A stretch of DNA of 64,000 bases from an uncultured Gammaproteobacteria bacterium (GCA_964452565.1 CAYVLY010000002.1:119166-183165), one strand, 5' to 3'. Positions 1 through 36,137 are shown, numbered from the stretch's first letter. Notes: generated from the letters alone by a model not told the origin. Numbers and translations: made by a program.

Positions 1-72
1 CGTTCGACATACCGAAACCTGTATTTACGCGGGCAGCCCAGCCAGGTTGTGATCTGGCTGACAGAAAGGTGC

Positions 73-777
73 TCAGGAAGCACGAGAGGCTCCCTGCTCC
101 TTCCATGCATTGATGAGTGCACTCGCCTGGACCTTGTTGATCTCCCCGGGGGAGTCCACTTTGGCAGACTGGCACAGGACACCTACGGCATCATCTCCTT
201 CGTATCCATGCTCGGAGAGGATGCGGAAGAGGAGCCTGCGCTGGGCCTCGGTCATGCTGTCAGAGGGCTCGTTTCCGCGTGGTCCAGGTCGGGGACCCTC
301 GTTACGCCTGCGCAGGGGCGGAGGCTGGTGCGCGTTGGAACGTCCATGGCCTGGCGCTACGCGTAGCGGCTCCACGTTGCTGGGAGGGCGCTGCACCGAG
401 TCGAACTCGCCATCAACGTCGCCACCGAGTTCCTCGAGCGCCACCGTGCCGATGTTCACCGCATCACGAAGAGCCCGGGCCTTGGCACGGGTTTCGGCCA
501 TACGGATCAGGTGCGGGACGATGCGCCTGTTGACGTTGTTCGGCGCTGCGTCACCAATGCCGGTGAACACGCCCTTCTCGGTCTCGACCGTTGCCACGAC
601 GATGGCGACGCCGTGGTTACCCTCGTCGGGAACCTGAAAGAGCTCGGTCGCGATGGACTTCAGCCCTTCTTCGTGGGCCTTGGCAAGCAGACCTGCGTAA
701 GTCGCGACCTCCTTCTCCTGGATGACCCTTCCTTCGCGGTTGCGAATGGGTATCTTGATTGTGAGTGCTTGTGACAT
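73..777 (-). CDS. Hypothetical protein, possibly a phage/ICE single-strand annealing protein (ERF/Rad52-like)
   Basis: ORF 73..834, with a likely start at the internal Met (MSQALTIK). The motif AETRAKARALRDAVNIG resembles the conserved AxT.A.KRA...GIG of Rad52/ERF-type annealing proteins. Weak, motif-level only. Confidence 0.4.
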   Translation of the reverse strand: MSQALTIKIPIRNREGRVIQEKEVATYAGLLAKAHEEGLKSIATELFQVPDEGNHGVAIVVATVETEKGVFTGIGDAAPNNVNRRIVPHLIRMAETRAKARALRDAVNIGTVALEELGGDVDGEFDSVQRPPSNVEPLRVAPGHGRSNAHQPPPLRRRNEGPRPGPRGNEPSDSMTEAQRRLLFRILSEHGYEGDDAVGVLCQSAKVDSPGEINKVQASALINAWKEQGASRAS

Positions 778-880
778 AGAAGTGCTCCAAAGCCTTGTGC
801 CCAGGCTTCTTTGGGAGAGGTGGGATTGCCTCACCTACAGCATGATGGAGCTCGAAAGGCGTGGGGAGGAGGGCTGGCAA

Positions 881-902
881 GGTGTTTCAGGCCTGAAACA
901 CC
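881..902. repeat. Perfect 22-bp palindrome GGTGTTTCAGGCCTGAAACACC, copy 1, in the upstream region of the 73..777 gene
   Basis: Exact self-complementary 22-mer. Recurs at 28414, 30076 and, with one mismatch, 35914. Confidence 0.9.
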
Positions 903-1020
903 CGGGATCATGCAAAAAAACGAACAGCAAAAAGACCCGTCAGAAACGGGCCTCAAGACGAACGACTGACAGCAGATGAGCAATGAGCACGGGCTATCGA
1001 GCTGCAGGCGTCATACTACA

Positions 1021-1698
1021 TCAGGAGGCGCGACGGAGCCTCCTGGGCAGCAGTTCCACGCTCACTCCGGCCTTCTGCCGAAAGACGATGAGATACTCAT
1101 GGGAGATCGGGATGAAGGTGCCAGTGTAGCGTTTTCTGTTCGAGGCCATGTTGTGCTGCACCTTGATGACCACCCCCTCCAGCGCCTCATCAGGGAGCGC
1201 CTCCACCACGGTGGGCAACATGCTCCAGTAGTGCCCTCGCCGGCGGATGTCGCCTACGAGCACGGCAAGCCTTCCACCGCGTGACAGCGCCAGGTAGCAG
1301 GAGCGCAGTACCCATGAAAGCGTGGAAGCGAACTGCTCGTAGTCCTCGTAGGTGGACAGATCTCGCTCATCCGGTTGTCTGCCCCAGACCCTGCCCGAGT
1401 AGCGGATGATGTTGAAGTACGGGGGGTGCAGGAAGACGAGGTCAGCGGGACGCTCCAGCATCTTCAACAGGGGCAGTGAGGTTGCGTCGAACCCGTGGTG
1501 CAGGTCAAAGCCAGCGTAGTCAACGCGCAATCGCTTGCACACGTCCCTGGACGTGCCCGAGCCCTCCATGGGGTCCACGACGAAGCGTGGCTGGTAGTGC
1601 TCGATCAGGGCCTCGATGACCTTGCCCGAGCAGTTGCCCGGGTAGCGAGAGTCACCGTCATGGCCGCGGGCAGGGAAAGACAGAATGCTCGAATCCAT
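1021..1698 (-). CDS. DNA N6-adenine/N4-cytosine methyltransferase (orphan)
   Basis: SAM-binding motif DPMEGSGTS followed about 50 aa later by the catalytic HPPY (D/N/S-PP-Y/F-type). No cognate nuclease adjacent. Confidence 0.75.
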   Translation of the reverse strand: MDSSILSFPARGHDGDSRYPGNCSGKVIEALIEHYQPRFVVDPMEGSGTSRDVCKRLRVDYAGFDLHHGFDATSLPLLKMLERPADLVFLHPPYFNIIRYSGRVWGRQPDERDLSTYEDYEQFASTLSWVLRSCYLALSRGGRLAVLVGDIRRRGHYWSMLPTVVEALPDEALEGVVIKVQHNMASNRKRYTGTFIPISHEYLIVFRQKAGVSVELLPRRLRRAS

Positions 1699-1716
1699 GG
1701 CTCTTGTCCTCCCCTG

Positions 1717-1968
1717 CTACTTGCCGAGCCGGAGCAGGCGCACGTGGTTCTGGGCGCGCTCACGCAGCTCCCTTGGAGCACTCTGCTCCAGAGCAACCAA
1801 GAAGTAGGGGCGTCCAGTGCCGTCGTTGAGCAGCTCTTGGTACTTGTCATGGGTGAGCTTGTGCCTCTGCCTGAACAGGATGACCTCGTGAGGGGCGGCG
1901 TCGCGCATCCAGTCCTCCTCGATGATGTCGGCAACGCCCTCGGCGCCCAACAGAACCAGAATGACCAT
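1717..1968 (-). CDS. Small hypothetical protein (83 aa)
   Basis: ORF immediately upstream of, and co-directional with, the methyltransferase. No recognisable motif. Confidence 0.35.
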   Translation of the reverse strand: MVILVLLGAEGVADIIEEDWMRDAAPHEVILFRQRHKLTHDKYQELLNDGTGRPYFLVALEQSAPRELRERAQNHVRLLRLGK

Positions 1969-2424
1969 ATTGGTCTCCTTTCGTGTTGTGGTTCTTGGCC
2001 ACAGTACGAGTCAGGAGGGCTCTCTGGCAGGAGGGATCGCAGGGGGAAGAAGCACTATCCGCAGATCAGATTGACGATTCCATAGAGTGGGAGTATCCTT
2101 TTTTCTACAAACAAATACACCGTTTGCGATTGGTGGCCTTGGGCTCTTGCCTTTGGCCGTAGAAGACCGATCACAGGAGGGGAACGGATGTTCCCATGCT
2201 TGCCACAATGGCTCGTTCAGCGACGCTACCGGTCTTCTACCCGGCGGCACATGCTTGGACGGGCCTTTTTGGATTTACAGAAATACAGTGTTTGTCTACG
2301 CAGAAGTGGACATACCTGTGGACAACGCTCGCCTTTCGCAAGGCGTTCTCACCCTGTCAGCCCGCCTACGCATGCCCCATAGCAAGAGCTACGATGTCAA
2401 CAATGTTCTTGACATTCCTTGCCT

Positions 2425-2694
2425 ATGAAAAAACGAATTCTCAACGCCATCCGCAGCCTGCGGATGGCCAGAAACAAACCGTGGAGGCAGCTCGACCTGG
2501 GGCGCCTTATTGGGGTTTCGCAGGGAGACGTCGGCGCCTATGAGGGCGGAAAAGTGGTCCCCTCGCTTCCCAAAGCGTTGGATATCGCCAATGCACTTGG
2601 TAAGCCCGTGGAGACCGTGTTTTTCGAACTCAACGAGAGTTCCATCGAGCGTGTTGGACAAAGACGCCGAGAACTTTCTGCCCCCAGGAGGTAG
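2425..2694 (+). CDS. XRE-family (Cro/CI-type) HTH transcriptional regulator
   Basis: Typical HTH_3 layout (LGRLIGVSQGDVGAYEGGKVVPSLPKALDIANALGKPVETVF). Divergent from the methyltransferase operon. Confidence 0.7.
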   Translation: MKKRILNAIRSLRMARNKPWRQLDLGRLIGVSQGDVGAYEGGKVVPSLPKALDIANALGKPVETVFFELNESSIERVGQRRRELSAPRR

Positions 2695-2710
2695 TTTACT
2701 AACTACGAAT

Positions 2711-2756
2711 ACAGAAGACCCTGTTCACTTACCTGGGAGTGAACAGGGTCTTCTGT
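2711..2756. terminator. Long perfect hairpin (18-bp stem, 10-nt loop) just downstream of the XRE regulator gene
   Basis: ACAGAAGACCCTGTTCAC-ttacctggga-GTGAACAGGGTCTTCTGT, followed by AT-rich (TA)5. Could be a bidirectional terminator or an operator. Confidence 0.45.
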
Positions 2757-2908
2757 TAGCAAGTTATATATATATTCCAAGGGGGGGAGTGTGAGGGGGG
2801 GAGAGTAGACCTCTGGCGAGATATCCACAGTTCTCAGTTCAACATGGCGGGAACGCCATGCCAGCCCTCCTCCCTGGGATTCAAGGCTGAACGTATCGTG
2901 TTTGGCAT

Positions 2909-3400
2909 ATGCAACACGATAACCGCTCACAGCGACGGGGCACCTTCGATCTGCTCTTCATCGCTGACGAAAACAAGATCACTGTCGCTCGCGCAGGCGT
3001 CGGTGGCGTCATCCGACTCGCGCACATTCCCGCAAAAGTCATTCTGCGTACAAGAGCTCTCCACGGAGCGCTGCGCGTGGTACTGCACGGCAGAGAACCC
3101 CGCCAAGTTCTGCTCTCGGTGATTGAGAATACACCGTATGAAAAAACAGTGCACCCGCTCTTCGAGGCTGTAGACGAGTACTGCACAGAGCGCAGGATTC
3201 CCCTGGTCTGGCTTCCAGACGTGAAGCAGATGGCGCGTGCAGCAAGCGTGCCGCCCACTGACAGTCGCCGAGATGGACGCTTGACGCGCCATGGACTTGT
3301 CAGCCGGGCAAGGCGCGGACTGGCGCGACTGGCCCGCAACACCAGGCACATCCGCTGCTCAAAAGAGCACAAGAAGAATCGTGATTTCAGAGGCTTATGA
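2909..3400 (+). CDS. Hypothetical protein, possibly an RNase H-fold (RuvC-like) nuclease. Strand ambiguous.
   Basis: Segment TVHPLFEAVDEYCTERRIPLVWLPDVKQMARAA resembles the C-terminal part of RuvC. Long overlapping ORFs exist on the minus strand (2881..3507). Confidence 0.3.
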   Translation: MQHDNRSQRRGTFDLLFIADENKITVARAGVGGVIRLAHIPAKVILRTRALHGALRVVLHGREPRQVLLSVIENTPYEKTVHPLFEAVDEYCTERRIPLVWLPDVKQMARAASVPPTDSRRDGRLTRHGLVSRARRGLARLARNTRHIRCSKEHKKNRDFRGL

Positions 3401-4002
3401 GTACCAGTGCAAATTTGTATGACGCGAATACGGCTCGTCGCCGCCTCTGCCTGGGCATCGCTCTGGGCAAGCGTGAAGCGGGTCTTGCACTGGCCAGCCG
3501 AGAGCACCTGTTTCTGGACCGAGTTCTCACACTACGCAAGATTCCCTCCGTGGATGGCAGAGAACGCCGATTCGCGCAGGTCGTGGATAAACTGATTGAT
3601 GATTTCGATGTTCAAAGGGTTTCCCTGGTGCTCCCTCATGGTAGACATGCCAAAGAACCTCAAGTACAGGCCCAGATCTCCTGCCTGGAGCGTGTGAGAG
3701 AGGAACGAGGGCTGTCACTCAACACCTATGAGATGGAGGAGGTCAAGCGCTCGCTAATTCCGACGGATAAAAACATGAGCCTACGAGAACTTGCCGAAGT
3801 GCTTGCAGAGCAATTCACAGAGCTTAAGTCCAAGGCACCAAGCACGACTCCTGTTCCTGGCGCCGAACACCTGCCAGAGCTTGCGAATCGGCCACGCAGA
3901 ACCAGAACAGCTCGCGAGAGGTATTGGGCACGCATGTTCCTGGCCCTGGGAGCAGCCATCTATGACCTGAACAGGCAGATAGTCCATGAACTGCATGTAT
4001 GA
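3397..4002 (+). CDS. YqgF/RuvC-like putative Holliday-junction resolvase family protein
   Basis: N-terminal RLCLGIALGKREAGLAL and a later DDFDVQRVSLVLP resemble the YqgF/RuvX layout. Start overlaps the upstream ORF stop. Confidence 0.4.
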   Translation: MSTSANLYDANTARRRLCLGIALGKREAGLALASREHLFLDRVLTLRKIPSVDGRERRFAQVVDKLIDDFDVQRVSLVLPHGRHAKEPQVQAQISCLERVREERGLSLNTYEMEEVKRSLIPTDKNMSLRELAEVLAEQFTELKSKAPSTTPVPGAEHLPELANRPRRTRTARERYWARMFLALGAAIYDLNRQIVHELHV

Positions 4003-4862
4003 GCAAGGAAGAAACGCGAACTCTGCGTCTGACAAGCAGAGACCTCGATACACTCTCTGACCTGGGCGACTACAGATTCATGAGCATTGCCCAGCTCGCA
4101 GCTCTGCACTTCCCGACAGAGGGGGCAGCGCAGGCCAGGCTACGAAGGCTTGTGGAAGGCGGCCTGGCGCTCAAGGTCTATGTTCCAGTAAGGCCCTACG
4201 ACCGTAGCGCTCACACCATCTACGCCCTTTCTGCCAAGGGTGCTCGGGAACTCGCAGACGCCCGCGGGTGCAAGCGACCTCGGCACTTGTCCGAGCGAGA
4301 GCGCAGAAGCGGGCTCTTCCTGGACCACACGCTCCGGCGAAACGACCTGCGAGTCTGCCTGGAGTTGCTCCAGAGCATGGAGCCTGGATTCCGCCTGCTC
4401 ATCTGGCGCCAGGCCAAGGACGAGGTGGGCACGAGCGCCAGGGTGCGTGTGGGCAGAGGGAGAGAGCAGAGAGTGCCCATCGTGCCAGACGGGTACTTCG
4501 CCGTACAGATAGGAGCGGGGTTCGAGAACTTCGTGGTGGAGATCGACATGGGCACAGTGCGCCTCGACCGGATGGCCTTGCGCTACAAAGCGTACTGGAA
4601 ATGGTGGAAGGCAGGCGGGCACAAGGCTTTGTATGGCCCTCTGCCTATCCGAGTCCTGACACTCACCACCACACCCCGTAGACTCGAAGCCCTGCGAAAG
4701 GCAGCCATGGAGGCGCCCATGGGAGGGAGCACCGGCTCAAACCTCTTCTGGTTCGCCTGCCTCGAGTGCGCTGACATCCAATCGCCAGAAAAGCTGCTTA
4801 CCCCGGTCTGGACAACAGCGCAGAAGCGCCCAGGGCCACTACGGAAGCTAATTAAATCATAA
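3999..4862 (+). CDS. Replication-relaxation family protein (Replic_Relax-like)
   Basis: N-terminal wHTH (MSIAQLAALHF) plus FLDHTLRRNDLRVCLE and VEIDMGT motifs typical of this family on Gram-positive conjugative elements. ATGA overlap with the upstream gene. Confidence 0.65.
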   Translation: MSKEETRTLRLTSRDLDTLSDLGDYRFMSIAQLAALHFPTEGAAQARLRRLVEGGLALKVYVPVRPYDRSAHTIYALSAKGARELADARGCKRPRHLSERERRSGLFLDHTLRRNDLRVCLELLQSMEPGFRLLIWRQAKDEVGTSARVRVGRGREQRVPIVPDGYFAVQIGAGFENFVVEIDMGTVRLDRMALRYKAYWKWWKAGGHKALYGPLPIRVLTLTTTPRRLEALRKAAMEAPMGGSTGSNLFWFACLECADIQSPEKLLTPVWTTAQKRPGPLRKLIKS

Positions 4863-4888
4863 ACAAACTGCATATGCGTAGAAAATGG

Positions 4889-5032
4889 ATGACCACCAAT
4901 CCGAAGCGGATCGTGGCAAACAAAAAAACAAAGAAGTGCGGTGTCTGTAGGACCAGAATCAAGGGACCGGCCAGGAAGATCGGGGGAAAGTACCGCTGCT
5001 ACTGGTGCAACAAGCGCATCTGCGGACATTGA
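4889..5032 (+). CDS. Small zinc-ribbon protein (47 aa), too short for the ORF track
   Basis: Manual translation MTTNPKRIVANKKTKKCGVCRTRIKGPARKIGGKYRCYWCNKRICGH. Two CxxC pairs. Paralogous to the next ORF. Confidence 0.3.
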   Translation: MTTNPKRIVANKKTKKCGVCRTRIKGPARKIGGKYRCYWCNKRICGH

Positions 5033-5041
5033 GCACAGATA

Positions 5042-5248
5042 TTGACCAACCTGAACACATTATGTATGCGAAAAAGGAAACGCCCATCCAAGAGGCAAAG
5101 AGATCGCTTGCGCCGACGTGCGATAGTCATGGCATCAAAGCGCTGTAAGTTCTGCCGAAGACGGCCTGATGTCCACTTTGCATTCGACAAAGAGAGAAGG
5201 CCGATCTGCTCAAAGTGCCTGGGATACGGTCATTTACCAGATCCATAA
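5042..5248 (+). CDS. Small basic zinc-ribbon protein (68 aa)
   Basis: CKFC...CSKC...YGH, with an Arg/Lys-rich N-terminus. Same Cys pattern as 4889..5032. Confidence 0.35.
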   Translation: MTNLNTLCMRKRKRPSKRQRDRLRRRAIVMASKRCKFCRRRPDVHFAFDKERRPICSKCLGYGHLPDP

Positions 5249-5507
5249 TTGTTATTGCTGCCTCCCGCGGCTCCTGGGAATGTCCCGAGGGGGCCGCTCC
5301 GAGCGTGACCCTCGTGCCGGACCGTTCGGACGCTCGCGTACTTGGCGCACGAGGCCAGGTGCGCGGCGGGGAGGACAAGGATGCCGCCTGTGATTCGTGA
5401 TTCGACCTATGGGCCTTTCAGAGGAGAGGGGCTCAAAGGCCGGAATCCCTGCGCATGAGGCCAGGAAACCGGGCCCAATAGCCAGGAAACCTGAAAAAGG
5501 AGGACAT

Positions 5508-26209: not shown

Positions 26210-26269
26210 GCTTCATGCACGTCGGTGGCGTGGGTGCCCCCATAAGAGAAAACACCCAACAGAAAGTAG

Positions 26270-29566: not shown

Positions 29567-30532
29567 CTACTTTTCATTGATAGATGCTCCATCATCGCAG
29601 AGCAGATCAACGACTTTTCGTAGGCCAGCCTGACCAGGGTGCAGGTAGCGGATCGTGGTCTGGATGGAGGCATGTCCAAGAAGGCGCCTGACCTCTTCAA
29701 TGCTCGCCCCGCGGTTCAAGAGCTCGGTGGCGAAGCCATGCCGCAGCATGTGAGGAGTAACGGCGAAGTTCAGGCCTGCAGCCTTCCCAAGGTCGCTGAC
29801 GTGGAGCTCGACCGTTCGCGGTGAAAGTCTACGGCGAAGCCTAGACACGAAGACCGCATTCGTAGCCAGCTTCAGCGATATTCTCTGCTCAAGCCAGGCA
29901 GCAAGAGCTGCTCGTGCTGTGCGGTTCAAGAGCACCGGCTGGGAGTTGCCGCCCTTGCGCCGGACCTCCAACAGGAGGCCCTCGTCCAGGTCCACCTGGT
30001 CGATGTCGAGGGAGAGAAGCTCATCGAGGCGCAGCCCTGTGTGGAACAGCAGCGTGACCATGCACGAGTCCCTGTGGTGTTTCAGGCCTGAAACACCCAT
30101 CGGGATGGCAGCCAGGAGCCTCTCCATATGCTCCGGCGTCACGACTGGAGGCTCTATCCGAGGAACCTTGACACGAGGGATGTCAGCCTCTGGGCTCAAC
30201 TCTATCACCTCTGTTTTTTCAAGATGTCTGAAAAAACCGCGAAGGACAGTCAGCTTGCGGTTCCGAGTGCTTGGAGAGATCGGGCCCCTGGGGCCTGGCC
30301 GGTTGAGATAGGCCACCAGGTGCTCACGGGTGACTTGCTCTGCCCTCACGACCTCCATCTTCGCGAGGGTTCGCCGAAAAAGGCATAGCTCCTGACGATA
30401 CGAGCGCAGCGTCTTTGGCGTGTACTTGCGCTCCTGTTCCGCGTGCTCCAGGAAGCCGTTGACGGTCGTCGCGAGGTCCATTCTTGAGCGTCGAGGGGTG
30501 AGGGTTTTTGGGGTGGGTGAACTGCGCCACAT
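29567..30532 (-). CDS. XerC/XerD-like tyrosine site-specific recombinase
   Basis: Box I-like TGLRLDELLSL. C-terminal HMLRHGFATELL...LLGHASIQTTIRYLH. Contains palindrome copy 3 in-frame (encoding GVSGLKHH). Confidence 0.85.
   Translation of the reverse strand: MWRSSPTPKTLTPRRSRMDLATTVNGFLEHAEQERKYTPKTLRSYRQELCLFRRTLAKMEVVRAEQVTREHLVAYLNRPGPRGPISPSTRNRKLTVLRGFFRHLEKTEVIELSPEADIPRVKVPRIEPPVVTPEHMERLLAAIPMGVSGLKHHRDSCMVTLLFHTGLRLDELLSLDIDQVDLDEGLLLEVRRKGGNSQPVLLNRTARAALAAWLEQRISLKLATNAVFVSRLRRRLSPRTVELHVSDLGKAAGLNFAVTPHMLRHGFATELLNRGASIEEVRRLLGHASIQTTIRYLHPGQAGLRKVVDLLCDDGASINEK
30076..30097. repeat. Perfect 22-bp palindrome GGTGTTTCAGGCCTGAAACACC, copy 3, inside the recombinase coding sequence
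   Basis: Exact match, embedded in codons of the 29567..30532 ORF. Confidence 0.9.
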
Positions 30533-30680
30533 ATATCAAACGGCGCAGTTGGCTGCAACGATGGCGGGCCATACTTTCGTTGCATCGGAGAAGCACTCGC
30601 GATATGTTATTTTATGGCGCTGGAAAGCGTCGGTGAGGTGATGTTGCCATTGGAATGGGTAAATTCAAAAGGGGAAGTGT

Positions 30681-31613
30681 ATGTCAACCACCGATCGCCT
30701 TTTTATTCTTCATGTTAGCGACACCCACTACGCACGGCCCGGGGAAACACTTTGTTCACTGTTGCGTGCGCAGACGCGTACAGAAGAAACTCCAGCCGCC
30801 GCTTTTCAAGTGGCGGCCCGGTATTTTATCAGTCAAATGAAAGGGGCAGCGCATCACTTCGCAAAATACAGACGAGACTATCTCGATAGAGTCTCACAGG
30901 TGGTCCAAATACTGCAAGGAGAGTGCATAACCATCCTTCACTCTGGAGACGTGTCGCAGGCGGGACAGATAAGCAGCATAGTGGAGGAATTGTCGGAACT
31001 CCAAAAGGCTGCAGGCGATGGCATAGAAATGATAGCCGTGCCAGGAAATCATGATCTCTGGCCAATGGACCTTCCTGTCCTGAGGCCGACACATACGGCG
31101 CTGCAATACTCGAGGATACGAAATCTTGGCTTCTTTCCTTCGCAGTATCCGAAGCTCTTCACCCTGTCAACTCCGGTGAACAGAATTCATCTTTGGGCGT
31201 TAGACTCTCCAATTGCAGATAGCGTTCCGAATATGTTCGCTGTTGGGAGTGTGGAGGACAACAGAATATCGGATGTCGGCGTGGTGGATGATTCAGGTCC
31301 CTATATCGGGACAGTGAGCCACCATCCGTTGCGACCCGTGGATCCCAAATTGGCAAGACGCTTGGCGCAGCACCTGCGCTTTCCGGTTCTCAACATGCTC
31401 GGGGCGACAGCCCTGTGCGATGTTCTTGTGAAACAGGGTGTCATCGTTCATTTTTGTGGGCACGAGCACAGAAGACCTGCTCGACCAGATGATATGCCTA
31501 TCCATGATAACAAAATACTGCAGCTCGCGGCGGGGACGCCAACGATTGGATCCTCTACCAGAACCTCAAGCAGCACAATTCCACAGTTTTCGCTTTACAG
31601 CGTTGTCTTCTGA
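30681..31613 (+). CDS. Calcineurin-like metallophosphoesterase
   Basis: Motifs in order: VSDTHY (DxH), HSGDVSQAG (GD), VPGNHDLW (GNHD), FCGHEHRRP (GHxH). Confidence 0.75.
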   Translation: MSTTDRLFILHVSDTHYARPGETLCSLLRAQTRTEETPAAAFQVAARYFISQMKGAAHHFAKYRRDYLDRVSQVVQILQGECITILHSGDVSQAGQISSIVEELSELQKAAGDGIEMIAVPGNHDLWPMDLPVLRPTHTALQYSRIRNLGFFPSQYPKLFTLSTPVNRIHLWALDSPIADSVPNMFAVGSVEDNRISDVGVVDDSGPYIGTVSHHPLRPVDPKLARRLAQHLRFPVLNMLGATALCDVLVKQGVIVHFCGHEHRRPARPDDMPIHDNKILQLAAGTPTIGSSTRTSSSTIPQFSLYSVVF

Positions 31614-31735
31614 CACTCCTGCGCGAGGGATCTCGTAAAAACAGCTTTCTTTGCCCGATGTTGAGCACAGTCTGGAACCTCATTCGAGGCGCACCTGTCC
31701 CCTGCGTGTGATGAGAGGGCGTTCTACTTGGTTTG

Positions 31736-33145
31736 TCAGGCGGCGCGCACCTCCTCTCTCGGCTGGATCTCCCCTGGTCGTCGCCGCAGGCGTCGGGGCT
31801 CCGCGGGTGGCTCGCGCCTGGTGAGGAGCAAGTCGAGGAATGCGCACAGGGAATCCAGGGAGCGGAGGCAGTAGTGGGAGCGCTGTCTCTTGCGGAACTC
31901 CCTGTTCTCTCGCTCTGGGTGGTTGGAGGTCTTGTCGGCGTTGTCGAAATCCAGGTAGTGGGTGAGCCGAGCGAAGAGGCCGTCATTGGACAGATCCGCG
32001 AGCACCAGCTTCATACCAGGGATTCCCTGGAATGCGGGATTGGCGAGGAGGGCCTGTCTGCGCTCCTCTGCCAACTCGTGGGAGTCCGTGCTCGAGCCGA
32101 AGAGCTCGTACATCGCCTCGATGAAGCGGCGGAGCACGCCTAAGGCCGGGCAGAGGCAGAAGGCCTCGTCCAGCATCTTCTGCTCGGCCTCGGTGATGAG
32201 CGGGCGCCCCTTGTCGTCCAGCCCCCCACGCTTGAAGATCAGGAACCGGCAGCGCATCACCTTGCGCCGGTTCTCCCTCTTCCGTTTGTCCAGCCGAGGT
32301 CGTCCCCTCTTCCTTGGGCGGCCACGTTTGCGCTTCTTGGGCTTTGGAAGTTCGTTGTAGGCGGCCCAGAAGGCCTTGGCCAGCTTCCTGTTCGCTCCCA
32401 TGAGGAAGTGGAAGACGCAGCGTTGGTGCTCGGCCTCGGGCCACACCTCTGCGATGATCTCTGGGTAGAGAGAGGAGCCGTCCGTCACCACGATCTGGGG
32501 CATGATGCCCGCCTCTCGCAGCTCCAGGAAAAACTCGCGCACGTCTTGGCCGCAGGGAGAGCCGTCCCCCAGCCGAGAGGAGATCTCCACGCCGTTGAGC
32601 GGATCGGTGGCTCTGATCACGTAGTGGTCGCCTTCGTAGACCTCGTCTACAGCGAGCTGACCGGAGAAGACCGTCACCATCCTCTCCATATGGCTCTGGA
32701 AATCCACCTCGCCCCCAGCTCTGCGGTACCAGCGGAGGACCGTCGTGTCTGCCAGCTTGGGCAGATGGAGCAGGGAGCGGCCCACGGCAGCCGCTCCCTC
32801 AAAGGACAACTTGTGGTCCACGACCAGCGACAGCACGGCGAGGCGAGTGGCGGTCGTATATCGGCTCCGTTCCTCGAATCCTGGAGGCTCAAGACGGAAC
32901 CAGCACTGGCCGCGTGGGCAGTGCTCACAGATGTAGCAGCCGACCTGCACGTACTCCATCGTAGGCCCATCGATGTCGGCCCTCTGGCGTTCCAGCAGGC
33001 GGATTTCGTTCCGCGGAGCTGGGCGACCACATCGAGGGCAGAGTGCGGCCTCTGGGGCGAAGGGGACAGGGTTGAGCTTCTTGGTGGGGAGGGGTATGGT
33101 CTTCATCGGCGCAGGTCCGGTTTGTGGAGCTTGGTAACTACGCAA
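31736..33145 (-). CDS. DDE-type insertion-sequence transposase with an N-terminal zinc ribbon. Family not assigned.
   Basis: CPRCG...CYICEHC zinc ribbon. Acidic residues in a DDE-like arrangement (AVDEVYEGD, IVVTDGSS). Basic KRKRGRPRKRGRPR patch. C-terminal NHPERENREFRKRQR resembles the transposase N..E..N..K/R signature. Confidence 0.6.
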   Translation of the reverse strand: MRSYQAPQTGPAPMKTIPLPTKKLNPVPFAPEAALCPRCGRPAPRNEIRLLERQRADIDGPTMEYVQVGCYICEHCPRGQCWFRLEPPGFEERSRYTTATRLAVLSLVVDHKLSFEGAAAVGRSLLHLPKLADTTVLRWYRRAGGEVDFQSHMERMVTVFSGQLAVDEVYEGDHYVIRATDPLNGVEISSRLGDGSPCGQDVREFFLELREAGIMPQIVVTDGSSLYPEIIAEVWPEAEHQRCVFHFLMGANRKLAKAFWAAYNELPKPKKRKRGRPRKRGRPRLDKRKRENRRKVMRCRFLIFKRGGLDDKGRPLITEAEQKMLDEAFCLCPALGVLRRFIEAMYELFGSSTDSHELAEERRQALLANPAFQGIPGMKLVLADLSNDGLFARLTHYLDFDNADKTSNHPERENREFRKRQRSHYCLRSLDSLCAFLDLLLTRREPPAEPRRLRRRPGEIQPREEVRAA

Positions 33146-33385
33146 TACCTGGATCTGCGCCGATCCACAAGCCCGCCGGTAGCCAGTCCTCCCCGGACGG
33201 CATTTCGAACGTGGTCTGCCCCTCTACGCCCCTGCTTCAGCACTCACGCAGGAGTGTCTGTCTTCTCACCCGTTCTCCGCGTCTCGTTGGCCGTATGGTA
33301 TGTGGACCTTCATTCGTGGGAAACACCAGCCTCGTTTGAGTACGATAGTGGTCTTGGGCGTTGGCATATTGTGTCCGCGAAGAAG

Positions 33386-34002
33386 TCAGACTTCCCTCTT
33401 CAGCTCCGCTCCAGCAAGCCGAAGGCCATGTTTCCGTAGCCGTTTTGTGAGTCGATGTATCCGGACTCTCGCTGTTCCTCTGCGAAGATTTTGGCGCTTG
33501 ATCTCCTGTGTATACTCTTCTGCTCCAGTGAAATAGGACAAAAGAAGGTCTCTATCTTTCTGGTGAAGAGATGAAAGCAGTTGAGAAGTGATCTCCTTGA
33601 ATTGATTCGTACCTCTCCTCGGAAAATACTTCGACTCGTCCTGGACTCGGTCGAATCCATGACAGTGCTCGATGTTCTTGGTGAAGGTCTGGGCCGCACG
33701 AAATCGGTCAATAAGGTGATTGCGAACTATTCGAACGGCATATCCGCGACCAATGGACTCAACATCAGTTCCATGAGTGAGTTCCAGCCTGCGCTCTCGT
33801 TCCATTAGCCGGACGATAGATTCCATCAGGGCATCCTCTCTCGACTCGGCGTCAAAACCGATATCGTGCCGATCGCGAATCTCCGGTAGAAGACCGAGAA
33901 GAGCCGTGAGTTTCTGGTCGGTTGATGGGGGTTTCACATTCGATACCCAAGCGTTGATGGATTGAGGAGCATCTACTGCGCAAGATACTGGGTAGTCAGG
34001 CG
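33386..34002 (-). CDS. ECF-type sigma-70 family RNA polymerase sigma factor
   Basis: Region-2-like YAVRIVRNHLIDRFR and region-4 HTH ARVRIHRLTKRLRK. 5' end trimmed to avoid overlap with the upstream gene. True start uncertain. Confidence 0.5.
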
Positions 34003-34473
34003 TCAATCCCAGTCGAAGAGATCTCTCCACTGCAGGAGTGAGTCGCGATTCGGCACGATCATATCGCCCTGGATTCGTCCGGCCAGAGGAAGCTCTTTCT
34101 TCTCGACGAGCATGGCGGCTACCCTCTTCAGCAGGTTGACGGGCACCCCATACATGGCAGCTATTCTCTCCTGGACTTCGGGGGTCCACCGCGGAAGTGT
34201 TTGGCGCTCGAGGTTTCCACTTCTAACGAGTGAGGCTGATAGCCAGTCGATATACCCATGGGTGGCGGCCAGAATGTCTTGCTGGACCTCCTGTTCCAGA
34301 ATTTCAAGAAAGAGTTCTTCACTGATCTCTGGAATGTCATCTGGCGAGGCTGTTTCAAGAAGCTCCGACAGCTGGTCGAGCGCGCCTTTGCCAATCGATG
34401 GACGAAGTCGATCCCATATCTCCCCGGCAAGGTCAGATTGCTGCTTTCTGATGATCTCCATGAATACCGTCAT
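34003..34473 (-). CDS. Hypothetical acidic protein (156 aa), possibly a sigma-factor partner
   Basis: ORF immediately upstream of the sigma factor on the same strand. Role as a sigma partner is inferred from position only. Confidence 0.4.
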   Translation of the reverse strand: MTVFMEIIRKQQSDLAGEIWDRLRPSIGKGALDQLSELLETASPDDIPEISEELFLEILEQEVQQDILAATHGYIDWLSASLVRSGNLERQTLPRWTPEVQERIAAMYGVPVNLLKRVAAMLVEKKELPLAGRIQGDMIVPNRDSLLQWRDLFDWD

Positions 34474-34655
34474 TCCATGACTCCTGCTTCGATGGTAGGT
34501 CTTCTACCTATAGACGAAGAGGCGTTACACCTTATATGCATTGTTGATATAAGCCTATTTCATCTATGGCCTTCCATGCAGAATCTGGCCTCGTTTCGTG
34601 CCACAAAGGAGATCATCCAAAACCGTTGCCAAAAAGCGCATTTCGAACCCCTCCA

Positions 34656-35489
34656 TCAATGAATGCAGCCCATCCAGACTCTACCGAATGCCATTTTCGC
34701 TGCTGTCTTGACGTTCAGCGGAAGGCCTTCGTCGATCCAGAGTCCGTGTGGGTATACCTCCTTGACAAAACGCTCGTCTGTGAGTTCTTCGCCGGGCCCT
34801 GGGATAGTGCTGATGCCAACAAGAGCGTGTCGTAAACCCATGAGGCTGGACCAACCCAGTGGTACAAGTAGTTCTGGGTCGTATCCAGAGTTTTTGCCAG
34901 CGATGTGCGTTCTTTCCCTTCCCGGGAGTTGCCCTCTAATTACTAAAGCAATTGACTTCGACACTAGATCAGCCAGTTGGACTCCCACTCTCTCTTTCGA
35001 GCAACAGGACAGTTCAAGGGTCAGACCATGCAGCCAAGGGAACTCTTCAAGCGGTTTGTTGAAATCGCAGCCCTTCCAGCCCACTCCTTCATCGAAGTGA
35101 ACAGATTTGAGGCGACCAGCAAGGCCATGGCCAGCAACCCTGTTCAACATGGCAAGGGCTTCCACACCAACAGAGGAGCGACGAGAGCGCTGGTGAATGG
35201 TAGCGATCACTCTGCAACTGCGACTGATTTCAGCGGCAAGCATTTTTCTCAACAGGACCTGTTCAGGGCTCTTTCTAATTGTCGCGGAAGACTTGAATTC
35301 ATCGACGCCTGGGCGAAGTCCCATGCTCTCGAAGCCGATCCGAAGGCGGTCCTCTATATCACCCGGCGCCAAGACAAACGCGCCAACGATGTAGAGGTCT
35401 TGGTCATGAATGCTTTCGTCGAAGTATGCCCGACGAATCCTGCTCCTGCTTTCTGCTGTTCGGGTCATTGACCACTTCCTTCTGTTCAA
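34656..35489 (-). CDS. Hypothetical protein, possibly DUF3800-like
   Basis: N-terminal YFDESIHDQDLYIVGAFV resembles the yiDESG start of DUF3800 proteins. Unverified. Confidence 0.4.
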   Translation of the reverse strand: MNRRKWSMTRTAESRSRIRRAYFDESIHDQDLYIVGAFVLAPGDIEDRLRIGFESMGLRPGVDEFKSSATIRKSPEQVLLRKMLAAEISRSCRVIATIHQRSRRSSVGVEALAMLNRVAGHGLAGRLKSVHFDEGVGWKGCDFNKPLEEFPWLHGLTLELSCCSKERVGVQLADLVSKSIALVIRGQLPGRERTHIAGKNSGYDPELLVPLGWSSLMGLRHALVGISTIPGPGEELTDERFVKEVYPHGLWIDEGLPLNVKTAAKMAFGRVWMGCIH

Positions 35490-35913
35490 TATTCTATGCG
35501 ATAGCCAGCTTGGCCTATTATCCCGGAATCGAACATCGACATCGAGGGGATCGTGCCCATGTCGAACCGACTGTTTGGTGCGTTTTTCTTGCTTGATAGT
35601 GAGTCTCTCTGCTTTTCATAGCAGGGCTGCGGGCAGGAAACAGATGGACCACGGTTTTTCCACCTTCAGTAACTCCAGGGACCATTGCGAGGTGTTGCAT
35701 TGAAGTGATGAAGGTATCAAGCGAGTGAATCCTCTGCAGCCCATATGCAGCCCAAAACTATGGAAAAACGACATTCTGTGGGAGAATTGATAATTAAGGA
35801 GAGAGCAGTCTTCTTTGCGAACTGTAAAGGCAAATCATGATTTCGGCGAGAGTTTGCGGAGTATCGAATCTGCCAATGATAGGGTTCGATTCCCCCGACA
35901 ATTGAAGTGAATC

Positions 35914-35937
35914 GAGTGTTCCAGGCCTGAAACACCT
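35914..35937. repeat. Near-perfect copy 4 of the palindrome (GTGTTCCAGGCCTGAAACACC, one mismatch) close to the island/host junction
   Basis: One substitution relative to the 22-mer. About 125 bp from the tRNA-Val 3' end. Confidence 0.8.
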
Positions 35938-36001
35938 CCGCAGGTAGTTGTCCACAGCAATTTTCGGAATGGCACCAATGCTATTCCCGTCAGACGCCAA
36001 A

Positions 36002-36026
36002 GCCCCGCAACATGCGGGGCTATTGT
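36002..36026 (+). terminator. Hairpin GCCCCGC-aacat-GCGGGGC followed by a T-rich tract
   Basis: 7-bp GC stem followed by tattgtt. Confidence 0.4.
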
Positions 36027-36060
36027 TAGCGACATTATTTGTGTTCGAAGAATGCTGTAA

Positions 36061-36137
36061 TGGTGGGCGTGAGAGGACTCGAACCTCTGACCTTCACAAT
36101 GTCAATGTGACACTCTAACCAGCTGAGCTACACGCCC
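36061..36137 (-). tRNA. tRNA-Val (anticodon GAC)
   Basis: Manual fold of the reverse complement: acceptor GGGCGTG/CACGCCC, D-arm GCTCAGCTGGTTAGAGT, anticodon loop TTGACAT, T-arm AGAGGTTCGAGTCCTCT, discriminator A, encoded CCA. Confidence 0.9.

What the first reader, a model, noticed from the sequence alone, without database searches (positions are those of the whole stretch)
1..36137. At least 36 kb of high-GC mosaic island inserted at the 3' end of tRNA-Val in a low-GC host
GC falls from about 60-68% to about 40-45% within roughly 100 bp of the tRNA-Val 3' end (CCA at 36061..36063 faces the island). The island carries integration, conjugation-like and restriction-modification/defence genes. 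The downstream genes (rplS with an N-terminal extension, RNase J with a basic tail, a compact layout) look like a small-genome, CPR-like bacterium. Such a compositional mismatch implies either recent inter-phylum transfer or a chimeric assembly. Either way the junction deserves checking. No direct repeat of the tRNA-Val 3' end is visible inside the window, so the far island boundary lies off-window.
Basis: partly seen in the sequence, partly recalled or inferred. Interest (0 to 1): 0.7.

Follow-up and report, generated by a model that had tools for sequence, protein, structure and literature searches.

The report
Mobilizable island at tRNA-Val in Uhrbacteria
A real (not misassembled) GC-rich mobile island of about 38.6 kb sits at the 3' end of tRNA-Val in a small-genome Candidatus Uhrbacteria bacterium, most likely inserted by a large serine recombinase encoded just outside the window, so it is an ordinary kind of element in an unusual host.

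Summary
The tRNA-Val, its orientation, the gene content and the CPR-like host are confirmed. The claimed sharp GC step is not. GC runs about 62% (1-20 kb), 55% (20-36 kb), 50% (36-41 kb) and 44% (41-64 kb), and is about 50% on both sides of the tRNA. A GC-corrected tetranucleotide signature does switch at the tRNA.

Misassembly is very unlikely. Per-run assemblies of two sequencing runs cross the junction with 100% identity. Uhrbacteria relatives have an empty site at this tRNA-Val. A sister island sits at an identical tRNA-Val in another Uhrbacteria-like contig.

The island continues about 2.5 kb left of the window to a large serine recombinase (LSR) gene, a tRNA-3'-like piece ending CCACCA, and a terminator. 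That gives about 38.6 kb at 58% GC, against 45% for the host part.

The island carries two MOBC-type relaxase genes, a coupling-protein-like ATPase, a methylation-based defence module, an IS transposase and a XerC-like recombinase. It also has a tyrosine integrase next to an intact, unused attP built on a tRNA-Pro fragment. No mating-pore genes were found, so it is a mobilizable island.

Inter-phylum origin is unproven. Backbone relatives occur in other Patescibacteria-like genomes.

The parts
1..36060 (.). Part of the island that lies inside the window. The whole island is inferred to span window -2516 to 36060, which is 38,576 bp.
   Evidence: GC and GC-corrected tetranucleotide signature differ from the host part. 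Absent from relatives L012 and L013 at the same tRNA-Val. The left extension was read from Logan contig SRR8146441_8679.
36061..36137 (-). tRNA-Val(GAC). Its 3' CCA end abuts the island and forms the attL side of the insertion.
   Evidence: ARAGORN and Rfam at 71.9 bits. It is 97% identical to the tRNA-Val of L012, with a compensatory acceptor-stem pair change, and 100% identical to that of L096.
35995..36060 (-). Island end next to the tRNA (putative P' arm of the serine-recombinase attP). It includes TCGAAC at +12 from the CCA end, and a hairpin.
   Evidence: Alignable with the segment following tRNA-Val in sister island L096. Unlike the terminators that directly follow CCA in the empty sites of L012, L013 and L014.
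1021..1698 (-). Orphan N6/N4 DNA methyltransferase.
   Evidence: Pfam N6_N4_Mtase, E = 1.3e-7. PADLOC MTase_II.
2425..2694 (+). HTH_3-type regulator, first gene of the left module. It is a candidate binder of the 22-nt palindromes (inference).
   Evidence: Gene call with weak HTH_3/HTH_31 hits. 46% identical to the HTH_3 protein of L094.
3999..4862 (+). MOBC-type relaxase candidate 1 (Replic_Relax).
   Evidence: Pfam PF13814, E = 2.6e-23. 52% identical to its counterpart in L094. PF13814 is equated with the MobC relaxase superfamily in PMC5357655.
5508..6824 (+). DUF932-like protein of the left module.
   Evidence: Weak DUF932 hit. PHROG 1362 and 1221 hits. 55% identical to its counterpart in L094.
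13243..14700 (+). Coupling-protein-like (T4CP / HerA-FtsK superfamily) ATPase.
   Evidence: Walker A motif GTGSGKT is visible in the sequence. There are 783 remote relatives, the best at 40% identity. Of 58 family members, 32 hit TrwB_AAD_bind, 30 hit TraG-D_C, 30 hit FtsK_SpoIIIE and 40 hit DUF87. The AlphaFold model has pLDDT 91. Its best PDB matches are Cag-beta and TrwB, E about 1e-10. 31% identical to its counterpart in L093.
14957..16006 (+). MOBC-type relaxase candidate 2 (Replic_Relax), next to the ATPase.
   Evidence: Pfam PF13814, E = 1.6e-11. 36% identical to its counterpart in L093, in the same gene order.
17996..18130 (+). HTH_17 (excisionase-like) domain just upstream of the tyrosine integrase.
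   Evidence: Pfam HTH_17, E = 1.9e-5. L093 has an HTH_17 gene in the same position.
18156..19367 (+). Tyrosine integrase.
   Evidence: Pfam Phage_integrase, E = 8e-29. 26% identical to the integrase of L093.
19369..19734 (.). Intact attP-like site of the tyrosine integrase. Nine TGCCACCCAG arm-type repeats lie on both sides of a tRNA-Pro-derived core.
   Evidence: Motif counts: 13 in the window against 4.6 expected, 9 of them here; 5 lie left of the core and 4 right. Sequence read.
19528..19572 (-). 3' portion of a tRNA-Pro(UGG): anticodon loop, T arm, acceptor strand and discriminator. It forms the core of the attP-like site.
   Evidence: Read directly from the sequence. It occurs once in the window. 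Two Logan contigs overlap by 30 nt at 19525-19554, which indicates a branch in the assembly graph.
21761..23758 (+). MAD2-like / type I-like N6 DNA methyltransferase with an HSDR_N_2 domain.
   Evidence: Pfam N6_Mtase and HSDR_N_2. NCBIfam MADS MAD2 at 638 bits, below the 720 cutoff. PADLOC MTase_II at 517 bits.
23755..25479 (+). Specificity (S) subunit.
   Evidence: Pfam Methylase_S. PADLOC Specificity_I and mad5.
25448..26209 (+). HNH nuclease, PtuB-like.
   Evidence: Pfam HNH, weak. PADLOC PtuB, E = 1.6e-14.
29567..30532 (-). XerC/D-like tyrosine recombinase. It contains one copy of the 22-nt palindrome in frame.
   Evidence: Pfam Phage_integrase, E = 6e-38, plus Phage_int_SAM_1. Palindrome at 30076-30097.
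30681..31613 (+). Metallophosphoesterase.
   Evidence: Pfam Metallophos. Only faint anti-phage phosphoesterase hits.
31736..33145 (-). Transposase related to the IS256, ISL3 and Mutator families.
   Evidence: Pfam Transposase_mut and MULE. NCBIfam IS256 and ISL3, both below cutoff.
881..902 (.). 22-nt perfect palindrome GGTGTTTCAGGCCTGAAACACC, copy 1. Operator-like.
28414..28435 (.). Palindrome, copy 2.
30076..30097 (.). Palindrome, copy 3, inside the XerC-like gene.
35915..35937 (.). Palindrome, copy 4, with one mismatch in the 20-nt core. It lies 125 nt from the tRNA-Val 3' end.
36983..37999 (+). RluD-type pseudouridine synthase, the first conserved host gene right of the tRNA.
   Evidence: Pfam PseudoU_synth_2. 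86% identical to the RluD of the Uhrbacteria MAG SI037_bin110.

Best explanation
The left 36 kb of the window is most of a genuine integrative mobilizable island of about 38.6 kb in a Candidatus Uhrbacteria (Patescibacteria/CPR) chromosome.

Insertion site. The island lies between the CCA end of tRNA-Val(GAC) and the tRNA's own terminator.

Most likely integrase (inferred). This is a large serine recombinase (LSR, 510 aa) encoded at the island's far end, 0.9-2.5 kb left of the window. The LSR gene is followed by a tRNA-3'-end-like piece, GTTCGAG-N16-CCACCA, and then by a terminator. Only CCACCA is shared between the two junctions, as expected for a serine integrase.

Putative attP. It has GTTCGA at -29 and TCGAAC at +12 around that core. 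Both motifs are conserved in a sister island.

Mobilization genes. The island carries two MOBC-type relaxase candidates and a TrwB/VirD4-like ATPase. No mating-pore genes were found. Transfer would therefore need a type IV secretion system supplied in trans (inferred).

Other content. There is a methylation-based defence module, an orphan methylase, an IS transposase and a XerC-like recombinase. A tyrosine integrase with an excisionase-like gene lies beside its own intact attP, which is built on a tRNA-Pro 3' fragment. This is a second integration system that was not used here.

Composition. The high GC content is a property of this element lineage relative to several of its hosts.
For: Real junction:
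- Logan contig SRR8146441_9369 (27,770 bp) equals window 19525-47294 at 100% identity.
- A second contig of 20-50 kb carries island ORF 34656-35468. This fits SRR8146440_15089 (20,783 bp), which also carries RNase J.

Empty sites:
- L012 has tRNA-Ile, a lipoprotein gene, tRNA-Val and then RluD, all at 41-47% GC. Synteny with the window ends exactly at 36061.
- In L013 and L014 a terminator directly follows the CCA of tRNA-Val.

Sister island (L096):
- Layout is tRNA-Val (100% identical), then a 5-kb island at 56-65% GC with a PDDEXK gene and an LSR (50% identical), then host ORFs, tRNA-Ile and RluD. Both flanks lie on one 9.5-kb contig.

Left end:
- L006 shows a PDDEXK gene, the LSR, the tRNA-like piece, a terminator and a T-arm copy.
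- The motif 'tRNA-3'-like piece ending CACCA' follows the LSR stop in all 5 close relatives. In 4 of them it is then followed by a terminator.
- The reconstructed attB looks like the empty sites.
- Of 56 more distant LSR relatives, 31 have a tRNA gene at the LSR 3' end. Background is 0.024 per 250 nt.

One element:
- Tetranucleotide signature correlates at 0.91 across the internal attP.
- The attP is intact, with arm repeats on both sides of its core.

Gene functions.

Related modules: L093 and L094.
Against: - Unmistakable host genes left of the island were never reached. The only assembly available ends 154 nt beyond the CCACCA, and that stretch is still 57% GC.
- That stretch contains an unexplained inverted 20-nt copy of the tRNA-Val T arm.
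- In sister island L096, 180 nt of GC-rich DNA separate the tRNA-like piece from the host terminator. The exact LSR-proximal crossover is therefore not fixed.
- A 6-nt repeat proves nothing on its own.
- No excised circle or empty-site read was seen.
- No recombination directionality factor or oriT was identified.
- The relaxase role of the Replic_Relax proteins is by family assignment only.
- About half of the island's ORFs have no annotation, so divergent mating-pore genes could have been missed.
Confidence: 0.7

Rival explanations
1. Chimeric assembly. A high-GC organism's contig was joined to a CPR contig through a shared tRNA-Val sequence.
For: tRNA genes are classic chimera points. The compositional contrast is strong. 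No read data could be inspected.
Against: - Per-run k=31 assemblies from two runs cross the junction without a break and match the window at 100%.
- A sister island lies at an identical tRNA-Val with both host flanks on one independent JGI contig.
- The LSR-proximal end shows CCACCA plus a terminator, as in the empty sites.
- The host side also carries GC-rich inserts that are absent from relatives.
Confidence: 0.03
2. The island was integrated by one of its tyrosine recombinases. Candidates are the XerC-like enzyme acting at the 22-nt palindromes, or the 18156-19367 integrase. On this view the serine recombinase is merely cargo or belongs to a neighbouring element.
For: tRNA 3' ends are the usual targets of tyrosine integrases (PMC8092301). 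One palindrome copy lies 125 nt from the tRNA.
Against: - The 18156-19367 integrase sits beside an intact attP built on tRNA-Pro, not tRNA-Val.
- The XerC-like gene lies 5.5 kb from the end.
- The palindromes are fully symmetric, share no flanking sequence, and three of them lie upstream of genes, which looks like operators.
- No long direct repeat of tRNA-Val exists.
- Sister island L096 has the LSR but no match to either tyrosine recombinase of the window, and it sits at the same site.
- The LSR clade is strongly associated with tRNA genes.
Confidence: 0.08
3. The region is not one element. It is an accretion of independently integrated elements: a small L096-like LSR island at tRNA-Val that later received an L094-like relaxase module, an L093-like T4CP/relaxase/integrase module, a defence module and an IS.
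For: - The three backbone modules have their best relatives in three different elements.
- GC differs between 1-20 kb and 20-36 kb.
- There are two relaxase genes and three or four recombinases.
Against: - The GC-corrected signature is uniform (0.91) across the island.
- No internal att pairs or tRNA fragments were found other than the single attP core.
- L093 shows that the T4CP/relaxase/integrase module and the LSR also travel together in another genome.
- This rival concerns history and is compatible with the island moving today as one LSR-bounded unit.
Confidence: 0.15
4. The island is a very recent arrival from a high-GC bacterium of another phylum, for example the organism the Uhrbacterium lives on.
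For: - GC is 58% against 45%, and the oligonucleotide signature is distinct and unameliorated.
- Named relatives of single genes include a Deltaproteobacteria MAG (ATPase, 36%) and a Thermoanaerobaculia-labelled MAG (LSR 47%, relaxase 52%).
- The tyrosine integrase's attP core is a GC-rich tRNA-Pro unlike the host's tRNA style.
Against: - The closest whole-architecture relatives are in Patescibacteria-like contexts (L096 and L093).
- The 'Thermoanaerobaculia' contig has an AT-rich flank and a divergent 16S end, so its label is doubtful.
- The best protein identities are only 26-55%, so no donor has been sampled.
- Related LSR islands are GC-richer than their flanks in several hosts. This suggests an element-intrinsic composition.
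Confidence: 0.2

Closest known systems
Integrative and mobilizable elements (IMEs) with MOBC (Replic_Relax, PF13814) relaxases, as catalogued in streptococci (PMC5357655)
   Same: An integrated element that encodes its own recombinase, a PF13814 relaxase candidate and a coupling-protein-like ATPase. It has no mating-pore genes, so it is expected to borrow a conjugative pore.
   Different: The host is a CPR bacterium. There are two relaxase genes and three or four recombinases. The proteins are only remotely related to known ones: the ATPase has no plasmid match and no word-level homolog.
[quoted passage not shown]
   Same: Serine-recombinase-mediated insertion at a tRNA gene, which that paper calls rare. 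The modular att-tra-rep-xis-int logic is shared. Nested or tandem integrases also occur there.
   Different: No RepSA, RepAM or Prim-Pol replication gene was found. The translocase folds like TrwB/VirD4 rather than being a clear FtsK/SpoIIIE TraB. The host is not an actinomycete. Here the insertion lies between CCA and the terminator, and the tRNA stays entirely native.
pSAM2-type elements that integrate into a tRNA-Pro gene, with a core running from the anticodon loop to the 3' end (recalled from memory; AICE review PMC2440964 listed)
   Same: The internal attP core is a tRNA-Pro fragment that starts in the anticodon loop and runs to the discriminator base. It lies next to xis-like and int genes.
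   Different: Here that site is unrecombined and internal to an island integrated elsewhere. No sequence relationship to pSAM2 was tested.
MOBC relaxase / T4CP loci reported in Patescibacteria genomes (PMC12102498)
   Same: That survey found that MOBC is the commonest relaxase class in Patescibacteria (58 of 109) and that 39 relaxase genes lie close to a t4cp gene. This island has that pairing, and the host carries a T4SS_pilin gene.
   Different: That survey did not describe element boundaries, integrases or att sites in the passages read. Here the boundaries and a candidate integrase are proposed.
Phage-type large serine integrases (Bxb1, phiC31, A118 class)
   Same: Resolvase + Recombinase + Zn_ribbon_recom architecture and a very short common core (6 nt here; 5-8 bp is typical).
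   Different: Those integrate inside protein-coding genes. This clade sits at tRNA gene 3' ends in 31 of 56 relatives. The element is not a phage: no structural-gene hits were found among the ORFs scanned.

Membership tests
Genomic island integrated at a tRNA gene | Lies directly at the 3' end of an intact tRNA gene | tested here: met
   The CCA of tRNA-Val is at 36061-36063. Synteny with relative L012 ends there.
Genomic island integrated at a tRNA gene | Absent from the same locus in related genomes (empty site) | tested here: met
   In L012, L013 and L014, tRNA-Val is directly followed by a terminator and host genes.
Genomic island integrated at a tRNA gene | Site-specific recombinase gene at one end | tested here: met
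   The LSR lies at window -949 to -2481. It is followed within 6 nt by the tRNA-like piece.
Genomic island integrated at a tRNA gene | Flanking direct repeats derived from the tRNA | tested here: inconclusive
   Only CCACCA is shared in direct orientation. A 20-nt T-arm copy is present but inverted.
Genomic island integrated at a tRNA gene | Composition deviates from the host | tested here: met
   GC is 58.1% against 45.5%. GC-corrected tetranucleotide correlation with the host is 0.72, against 0.91 within the island.
Integrative conjugative element (self-transmissible ICE) | Encodes a mating-pair-formation T4SS (VirB4 and partners) | tested here: not met
   No VirB4, VirB6, VirB8 or pilin families were found among island ORFs with Pfam, NCBIfam or PHROGs. 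Unannotated ORFs remain, and CONJScan was not available.
Integrative mobilizable element (IME) | Own integrase plus relaxase (with or without T4CP), without a mating pore | tested here: met
   LSR and tyrosine integrases. Two PF13814 (MobC) proteins. A T4CP-like ATPase.
Integrative mobilizable element (IME) | Functional oriT and demonstrated mobilization | not testable with these tools
   No oriT model is available and no experiment was possible.
Actinomycete ICE (AICE) | FtsK/SpoIIIE-type TraB translocase together with RepSA, RepAM or Prim-Pol, in an actinomycete host | tested here: not met
   The ATPase folds most like TrwB/Cag-beta. No Rep family hit was found. The host is an Uhrbacterium.
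Large serine recombinase integrase | Resolvase + Recombinase + Zn_ribbon_recom domains | tested here: met
   Precomputed Pfam hits for the 510-aa protein and for 100+ relatives.
Large serine recombinase integrase | attL and attR share only a short core; attP has imperfect inverted repeats around the crossover | tested here: met
   The core is CCACCA. GTTCGA at -29 and TCGAAC at +12 are conserved at the same positions in L096. This is consistent with the family but does not prove the crossover point.
Large serine recombinase integrase | Catalyses attP x attB recombination | not testable with these tools
   Needs an experiment or junction reads.
Prophage | Capsid, portal, terminase and tail genes | tested here: not met
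   PHROGs on 10 unannotated island ORFs gave only unknown-function families and one negligible terminase hit, E = 3.6e-4. Pfam found no structural genes.
MADS (methylation-associated defence system) | MAD2 methyltransferase above the curated cutoff, plus the other mad genes | tested here: inconclusive
   MAD2 scores 638 bits against a cutoff of 720. The S subunit hits mad5 and type I S models equally. Other mad genes were not found.

The most novel reading that the evidence does not exclude
These GC-rich islands may be a previously undescribed family of mobilizable elements that circulate among Patescibacteria, and possibly between them and the bacteria they live on. They would supply the MOBC relaxase and coupling protein that the widespread 'relaxase-less' Patescibacterial type IV secretion system lacks. 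They would be inserted by a large, so far unrecognised clade of serine integrases that specialise in tRNA gene 3' ends. Their foreign composition may also cause CPR contigs to be mis-binned, as possibly happened to L094.
Probability: 0.25. Interest if true: 0.7.

Novelty: new variant of a known kind. Interest (0 to 1): 0.5.

Why it matters
Mobile elements with defined ends are hardly described in CPR/Patescibacteria. The function of these bacteria's ubiquitous chromosomal type IV secretion system is also open, because relaxases are usually missing (PMC12102498).

This locus gives a concrete, testable case:
- an island with predicted attL, attR, attP and attB sequences;
- a candidate tRNA-targeting serine integrase;
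- relaxase and coupling-protein genes;
- relatives in other Patescibacteria-like genomes.

The locus also shows that strongly GC-deviant DNA inside a CPR genome can be genuine. This matters for binning and for contamination filters.

Serine integrases with tRNA targets could also be useful as new site-specific integration tools.

If none of this holds, the locus is simply one more tRNA-linked genomic island.

Tried and rejected
- Direct repeat of the tRNA-Val 3' end inside the window: none found.
- Rfam and ARAGORN for the tRNA-Pro fragment: not detected, because it is partial. It was identified by reading the sequence.
- Retrieving the source NCBI contig (219,860 bp) left of the window: the tools returned only Logan contigs.
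- Exact-pattern scan of GTDB genomes for the left tail: nothing found.
- Finding the left-flank host gene through L012's Clp-like ATPase: the best non-self hit (79%) came from another sample and lineage, L092.
- Look-ups with guessed gene starts for the integrase and the methylase: not on record.
- ATPase against plasmids: no match.
- ATPase in the word-indexed protein search: only itself.
- Single-sequence structure of the ATPase: unusable, pLDDT 41.
- DUF932-like protein in JGI metagenomes: nothing found.
- Palindrome and tRNA-Pro core in IMG/VR: no matches.
- SRR accession in the literature: no paper found.
- Apparent similarity between our post-terminator tail and the post-CCA region of L096: not above shuffled controls, so dropped.
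- Idea that 1-19.5 kb and 19.5-36 kb are two tandem tRNA-integrated elements: rejected, because the site between them is an intact attP and the two halves share one oligonucleotide signature.
- Idea that the inverted 20-nt T-arm copies are transposon-like terminal repeats or an invertase site: not supported by L096. Left as unexplained.

Full report
**1. The observation**

ARAGORN and Rfam find one tRNA in the window. It is tRNA-Val(GAC) at 36061-36137 on the minus strand, so its CCA end (36061-36063) faces lower coordinates.

The GC profile does not show the claimed sharp step.
- In 1-kb windows GC is about 60-68% over 1-20 kb, 51-60% over 20-36 kb, 43-53% over 36-41 kb and 40-46% beyond. The one exception beyond 41 kb is 52-53 kb.
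- In 200-nt windows GC is about 45-55% on both sides of the tRNA.

A boundary does exist, however.
- After correcting for base composition, tetranucleotide usage of 1-19.3 kb and 19.8-35.9 kb correlates at 0.91. Each correlates with 41-64 kb at only 0.72.
- The 4-kb bins change allegiance between the 32-36 kb bin and the 36-40 kb bin.

The GC-rich patch at 52-53 kb belongs to the host. It is an ORF conserved in a relative, plus the RNase P RNA at 52979-53399.

**2. Host identity and the empty site**

The window comes from a 219,860-bp MAG contig held by NCBI.
- Its RNase J shares a 90%-identity cluster with 'ribonuclease J [Candidatus Uhrbacteria bacterium]'.
- Its RluD is 86% identical to that of the MAG Candidatus Uhrbacteria SI037_bin110, locus L012.

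L012 has no island.
- Its order is tRNA-Ile(TAT), a lipoprotein ORF, tRNA-Val(GAC) (97% identical to ours, with a compensatory acceptor-stem change) and, 44 nt further on, RluD. All of this is 41-47% GC.
- Nucleotide similarity between the window and L012 runs from 49.1 kb back to 36061 and stops at the tRNA's 3' end.
- In L012, L013 and L014 the CCA of tRNA-Val is followed directly by a terminator.

The relative also lacks three smaller GC-rich inserts that the window has on the host side: 36138-36982, 38.6-39.63 kb and 40.3-41.0 kb.

**3. Not a chimera**

Logan per-run assemblies match the window at 100% identity.
- SRR8146441_9369 (27,770 bp) covers 19525-47294. It therefore crosses the tRNA junction with 16.5 kb of island and 11 kb of host.
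- Island ORF 34656-35468 is carried by two contigs of 20-50 kb. The second fits SRR8146440_15089 (20,783 bp). That contig also carries RNase J and, by arithmetic, reaches back to about 31.3 kb. This last point is an inference.

An independent JGI contig, L096 (Ga0114933_10007491, 9.5 kb), gives further support.
- It holds a smaller island at an identical tRNA-Val, with Uhrbacteria-like genes on both sides: DHH and the CCA-adding enzyme on one side; small membrane ORFs, tRNA-Ile(TAT) and RluD on the other.

**4. The far end of the island**

Logan contig SRR8146441_8679 (22,225 bp; locus L006) equals window 1-11698 and continues 2,670 nt to the left. That extension encodes:
- a PDDEXK/Cas4-like protein;
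- a 510-aa large serine recombinase (LSR) with Resolvase, Recombinase and Zn_ribbon_recom domains, at window -949 to -2481 on the minus strand.

Six nucleotides after the LSR stop codon comes GTTCGAGAATCGTACCCCAGGGTCCACCA (window -2488 to -2516). This resembles a tRNA T loop plus acceptor end. It is followed by a strong terminator (-2516 to -2549).

The same arrangement recurs in the close LSR relatives.
- In all five (ours, L096, L094, L093, L097; 38-50% identity), a tRNA-3'-like piece ending in CACCA lies 6-75 nt after the LSR stop, in the orientation of the LSR gene.
- In four of the five a terminator follows.
- In L094 the piece is a complete tRNA-Phe.
- In L093 and L097 host-type DNA follows the terminator at once.

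Joining our tRNA-Val to the sequence after the left-hand CCACCA gives '...CACGCCCACCA|AAAAAGCCGCAGAC...TTTTTTG'. This looks just like the empty sites of L012, L013 and L014.

On the tRNA side, the first 65 nt or so of the island align with the corresponding segment of L096, but not with the empty sites.

The reconstructed attP of both islands has GTTCGA at -29 and TCGAAC at +12 relative to the CCA end. The dyad therefore falls inside CCACCA.

My inference is that the island spans window -2516 to 36060. That is 38,576 bp at 58.1% GC, against 45.5% for the host part. CCACCA would be the common core of a serine-integrase reaction.

Short cores of 5-8 bp are typical of serine integrases (PMC8092301). 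Serine-recombinase integration into tRNA genes has been called rare (PMC3218068).

In this LSR clade it is the rule rather than the exception.
- Of 56 metagenomic relatives with enough flank, 31 have a tRNA gene starting between -100 and +150 nt of the LSR stop.
- In 30 of those the tRNA is on the opposite strand and overlaps the ORF end.
- The background is 0.024 per 250 nt, and twelve different amino-acid specificities are represented.

**5. What remains uncertain at the left end**

- The Logan contig stops 154 nt beyond the CCACCA without reaching a recognisable host gene. That stretch is 57% GC.
- It begins with an exact 20-nt copy of the tRNA-Val T arm (-2552 to -2571), inverted relative to the tRNA.
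- L096 has no such copy. It has instead 180 nt of unrelated GC-rich DNA before the host terminator.
- The tRNA-Val/tRNA-Ile pair is inverted between relatives. L012 is one type; L013, L014, L092 and L096 are the other. The T-arm copy may therefore be a relic of such rearrangements. I could not test this.

**6. Anatomy of the island (window coordinates)**

Left module:
- orphan N6/N4 methylase, 1021-1698;
- HTH_3 regulator, 2425-2694;
- Replic_Relax protein, 3999-4862;
- DUF932-like protein, 5508-6824.

This module is collinear with, and 46-55% identical to, an element next to an LSR in L094.

Middle module:
- ATPase, 13243-14700;
- second Replic_Relax protein, 14957-16006;
- HTH_17 domain, about 17996-18130;
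- tyrosine integrase, 18156-19367.

This module is collinear with an element in L093, an 842-kb contig labelled Patescibacteria. Identities are 31% for the ATPase, 50% for a small protein, 36% for the relaxase and 26% for the integrase. The L093 element also ends with an LSR, 42% identical to ours.

The ATPase:
- It has no plasmid match and no word-level homolog.
- An exhaustive HMMER search finds 783 relatives.
- Of 58 family members, 40 hit DUF87/HerA, 32 hit TrwB_AAD_bind, 30 hit TraG-D_C and 30 hit FtsK_SpoIIIE.
- An alignment-based model (pLDDT 91) best matches Cag-beta/VirD4 and TrwB.

PF13814 corresponds to the MOBC relaxase class (PMC5357655). MOBC is the commonest relaxase class found in Patescibacteria, often beside a t4cp gene (PMC12102498).

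Right part:
- MAD2-like/type I-like methyltransferase, 21761-23758;
- S subunit, 23755-25479;
- PtuB-like HNH nuclease, 25448-26209;
- XerC/D-like recombinase, 29567-30532;
- metallophosphoesterase, 30681-31613;
- IS256/ISL3-like transposase, 31736-33145.

No mating-pore, replication-initiator or phage structural genes were detected.

**7. The internal attP**

Right after the tyrosine integrase, 19528-19572 (minus strand) is the 3' part of a tRNA-Pro(UGG).
- It comprises the anticodon loop TTTGGGA, the T arm GGCGGTTCGAATCCGCC and the acceptor strand CACCCCG plus A.
- A terminator-like hairpin follows.

Nine copies of TGCCACCCAG lie around it: five to the left (19369-19453) and four to the right (19653-19734). 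The window holds 13 in all, against 4.6 expected.

Arm-type repeats on both sides of a core are the signature of an unrecombined attP. This integrase therefore did not make the present insertion, and the DNA on either side of it is one continuous element. The shared signature agrees.

L093 shows the same layout: a tRNA 3' fragment flanked by repeats, just after its integrase.

Two Logan contigs end and overlap by 30 nt exactly at 19525-19554. This is expected where a k=31 assembly graph branches at a sequence shared with a genuine tRNA-Pro in the community.

**8. How it most likely works**

Shown:
- The island is present and contiguous with the host.
- It is absent from relatives at this locus.
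- A serine recombinase gene and a tRNA-like att piece lie at its far end.
- Relaxase-family and coupling-protein-like genes are present.

Inferred:
- The LSR recombined an attP (...GGGTCCACCA|TTACAGC...) with the attB formed by the tRNA-Val 3' end and its terminator. The tRNA was left intact.
- Excision would need the LSR plus an unidentified directionality factor.
- The circular form could be nicked by a MOBC relaxase. The T4CP-like ATPase could then deliver it to a type IV secretion system provided in trans. The host carries a T4SS_pilin gene at 45050-46618.
- In a host with a matching tRNA-Pro, the tyrosine integrase and excisionase could provide a second way to integrate.
- The four 22-nt palindromes (881, 28414, 30076, 35915) share nothing beyond the palindrome, and three lie upstream of minus-strand ORFs. 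I read them as operators of an island regulator. This is a guess.

**9. Origin**

The composition says the island is foreign to this genome and not ameliorated. The donor is not identified.
- The best backbone identities are 26-55%.
- The two relatives that share the architecture are in Patescibacteria-like contexts. L096 sits at the same tRNA-Val. L093's host flank is 59-66% GC.
- L094 is labelled Thermoanaerobaculia, but its island abuts an AT-rich spacer and a divergent 16S 3' end. That label is therefore doubtful.
- One ATPase relative (36%) is in a Deltaproteobacteria MAG.
- Related LSR islands are GC-richer than their flanks in L096, L097 and L094.

**10. Verdict**

This is a genuine, mosaic, mobilizable genomic island at tRNA-Val in a CPR bacterium.
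- The kind of element is known.
- The host, the tRNA-specialised serine integrase clade and the unused second attP make it a noteworthy variant.
- Interest is moderate.

Noticed in passing
window 36138-36982: An 845-nt insert lies between tRNA-Val and RluD, where relative L012 has only 44 nt. It holds a GC-rich orphan ORF, 36360-36971 (minus strand), with no family hit. Positions 36138-36294 resemble (77%) the tRNA-Val upstream flank of another relative, L092.
   Followed up: partly
window 38600-39631: A 1-kb insert at about 60% GC lies between the cmk-like gene and rplS. It is absent from the relative. Direct repeats of 34 nt (38945-38978 and 39598-39631, 88% identical) bracket ORF 39101-39562, which has an internal duplication. 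Homology to the relative resumes at 39632, right after the second repeat. It looks like a miniature insertion with target or att repeats.
   Followed up: partly
window 40300-41000: A GC-rich lipoprotein ORF (40426-40908) sits where the relative has a Ser_hydrolase gene.
   Followed up: no
window 40275-40333 and 57476-57533: A 59-nt repeat, 91% identical, occurs after rplS and again in the glycosyltransferase cluster. Its nature is unknown.
   Followed up: no
window 52979-53399: A bacterial class A RNase P RNA (174 bits). Together with a conserved ORF at 52422-52862, it explains the local GC peak in the host part.
   Followed up: yes
window 881-902, 28414-28435, 30076-30097, 35915-35937: A perfect 22-nt palindrome, GGTGTTTCAGGCCTGAAACACC, occurs four times, only in the island. 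One copy lies in frame inside the XerC-like recombinase gene. Flanking sequences are unrelated, and there are no copies in IMG/VR.
   Followed up: partly
L006 14251-14270 (window -2552 to -2571): An exact 20-nt copy of the tRNA-Val T arm lies just outside the LSR-proximal terminator. It is inverted relative to the tRNA gene 38.6 kb away. It is absent from sister island L096.
   Followed up: partly
L012, L013, L014, L092, L096: The convergent tRNA-Val/tRNA-Ile(TAT) pair next to RluD occurs in two mutually inverted arrangements among Uhrbacteria-like genomes. This suggests a recurrent inversion at this locus.
   Followed up: partly
L094 11498-12223: A contig binned as Thermoanaerobaculia carries a GC-rich LSR island. 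Next to it lie tRNA-Phe, an AT-rich spacer and a divergent 16S 3' end (GGATGCCTTGTTACGACTT). The bin label may be an artefact of the island's composition.
   Followed up: no
L096-L175 (metagenomic LSR loci): In 30 of 56 relatives of the serine recombinase, a tRNA gene on the opposite strand overlaps or abuts the 3' end of the recombinase ORF. Many different tRNA species are involved. This indicates a large clade of serine integrases associated with tRNA genes.
   Followed up: partly
window 45050-46618: A T4SS_pilin-family gene in the host part, next to UvrA and SecG. It is conserved in the relative.
   Followed up: no
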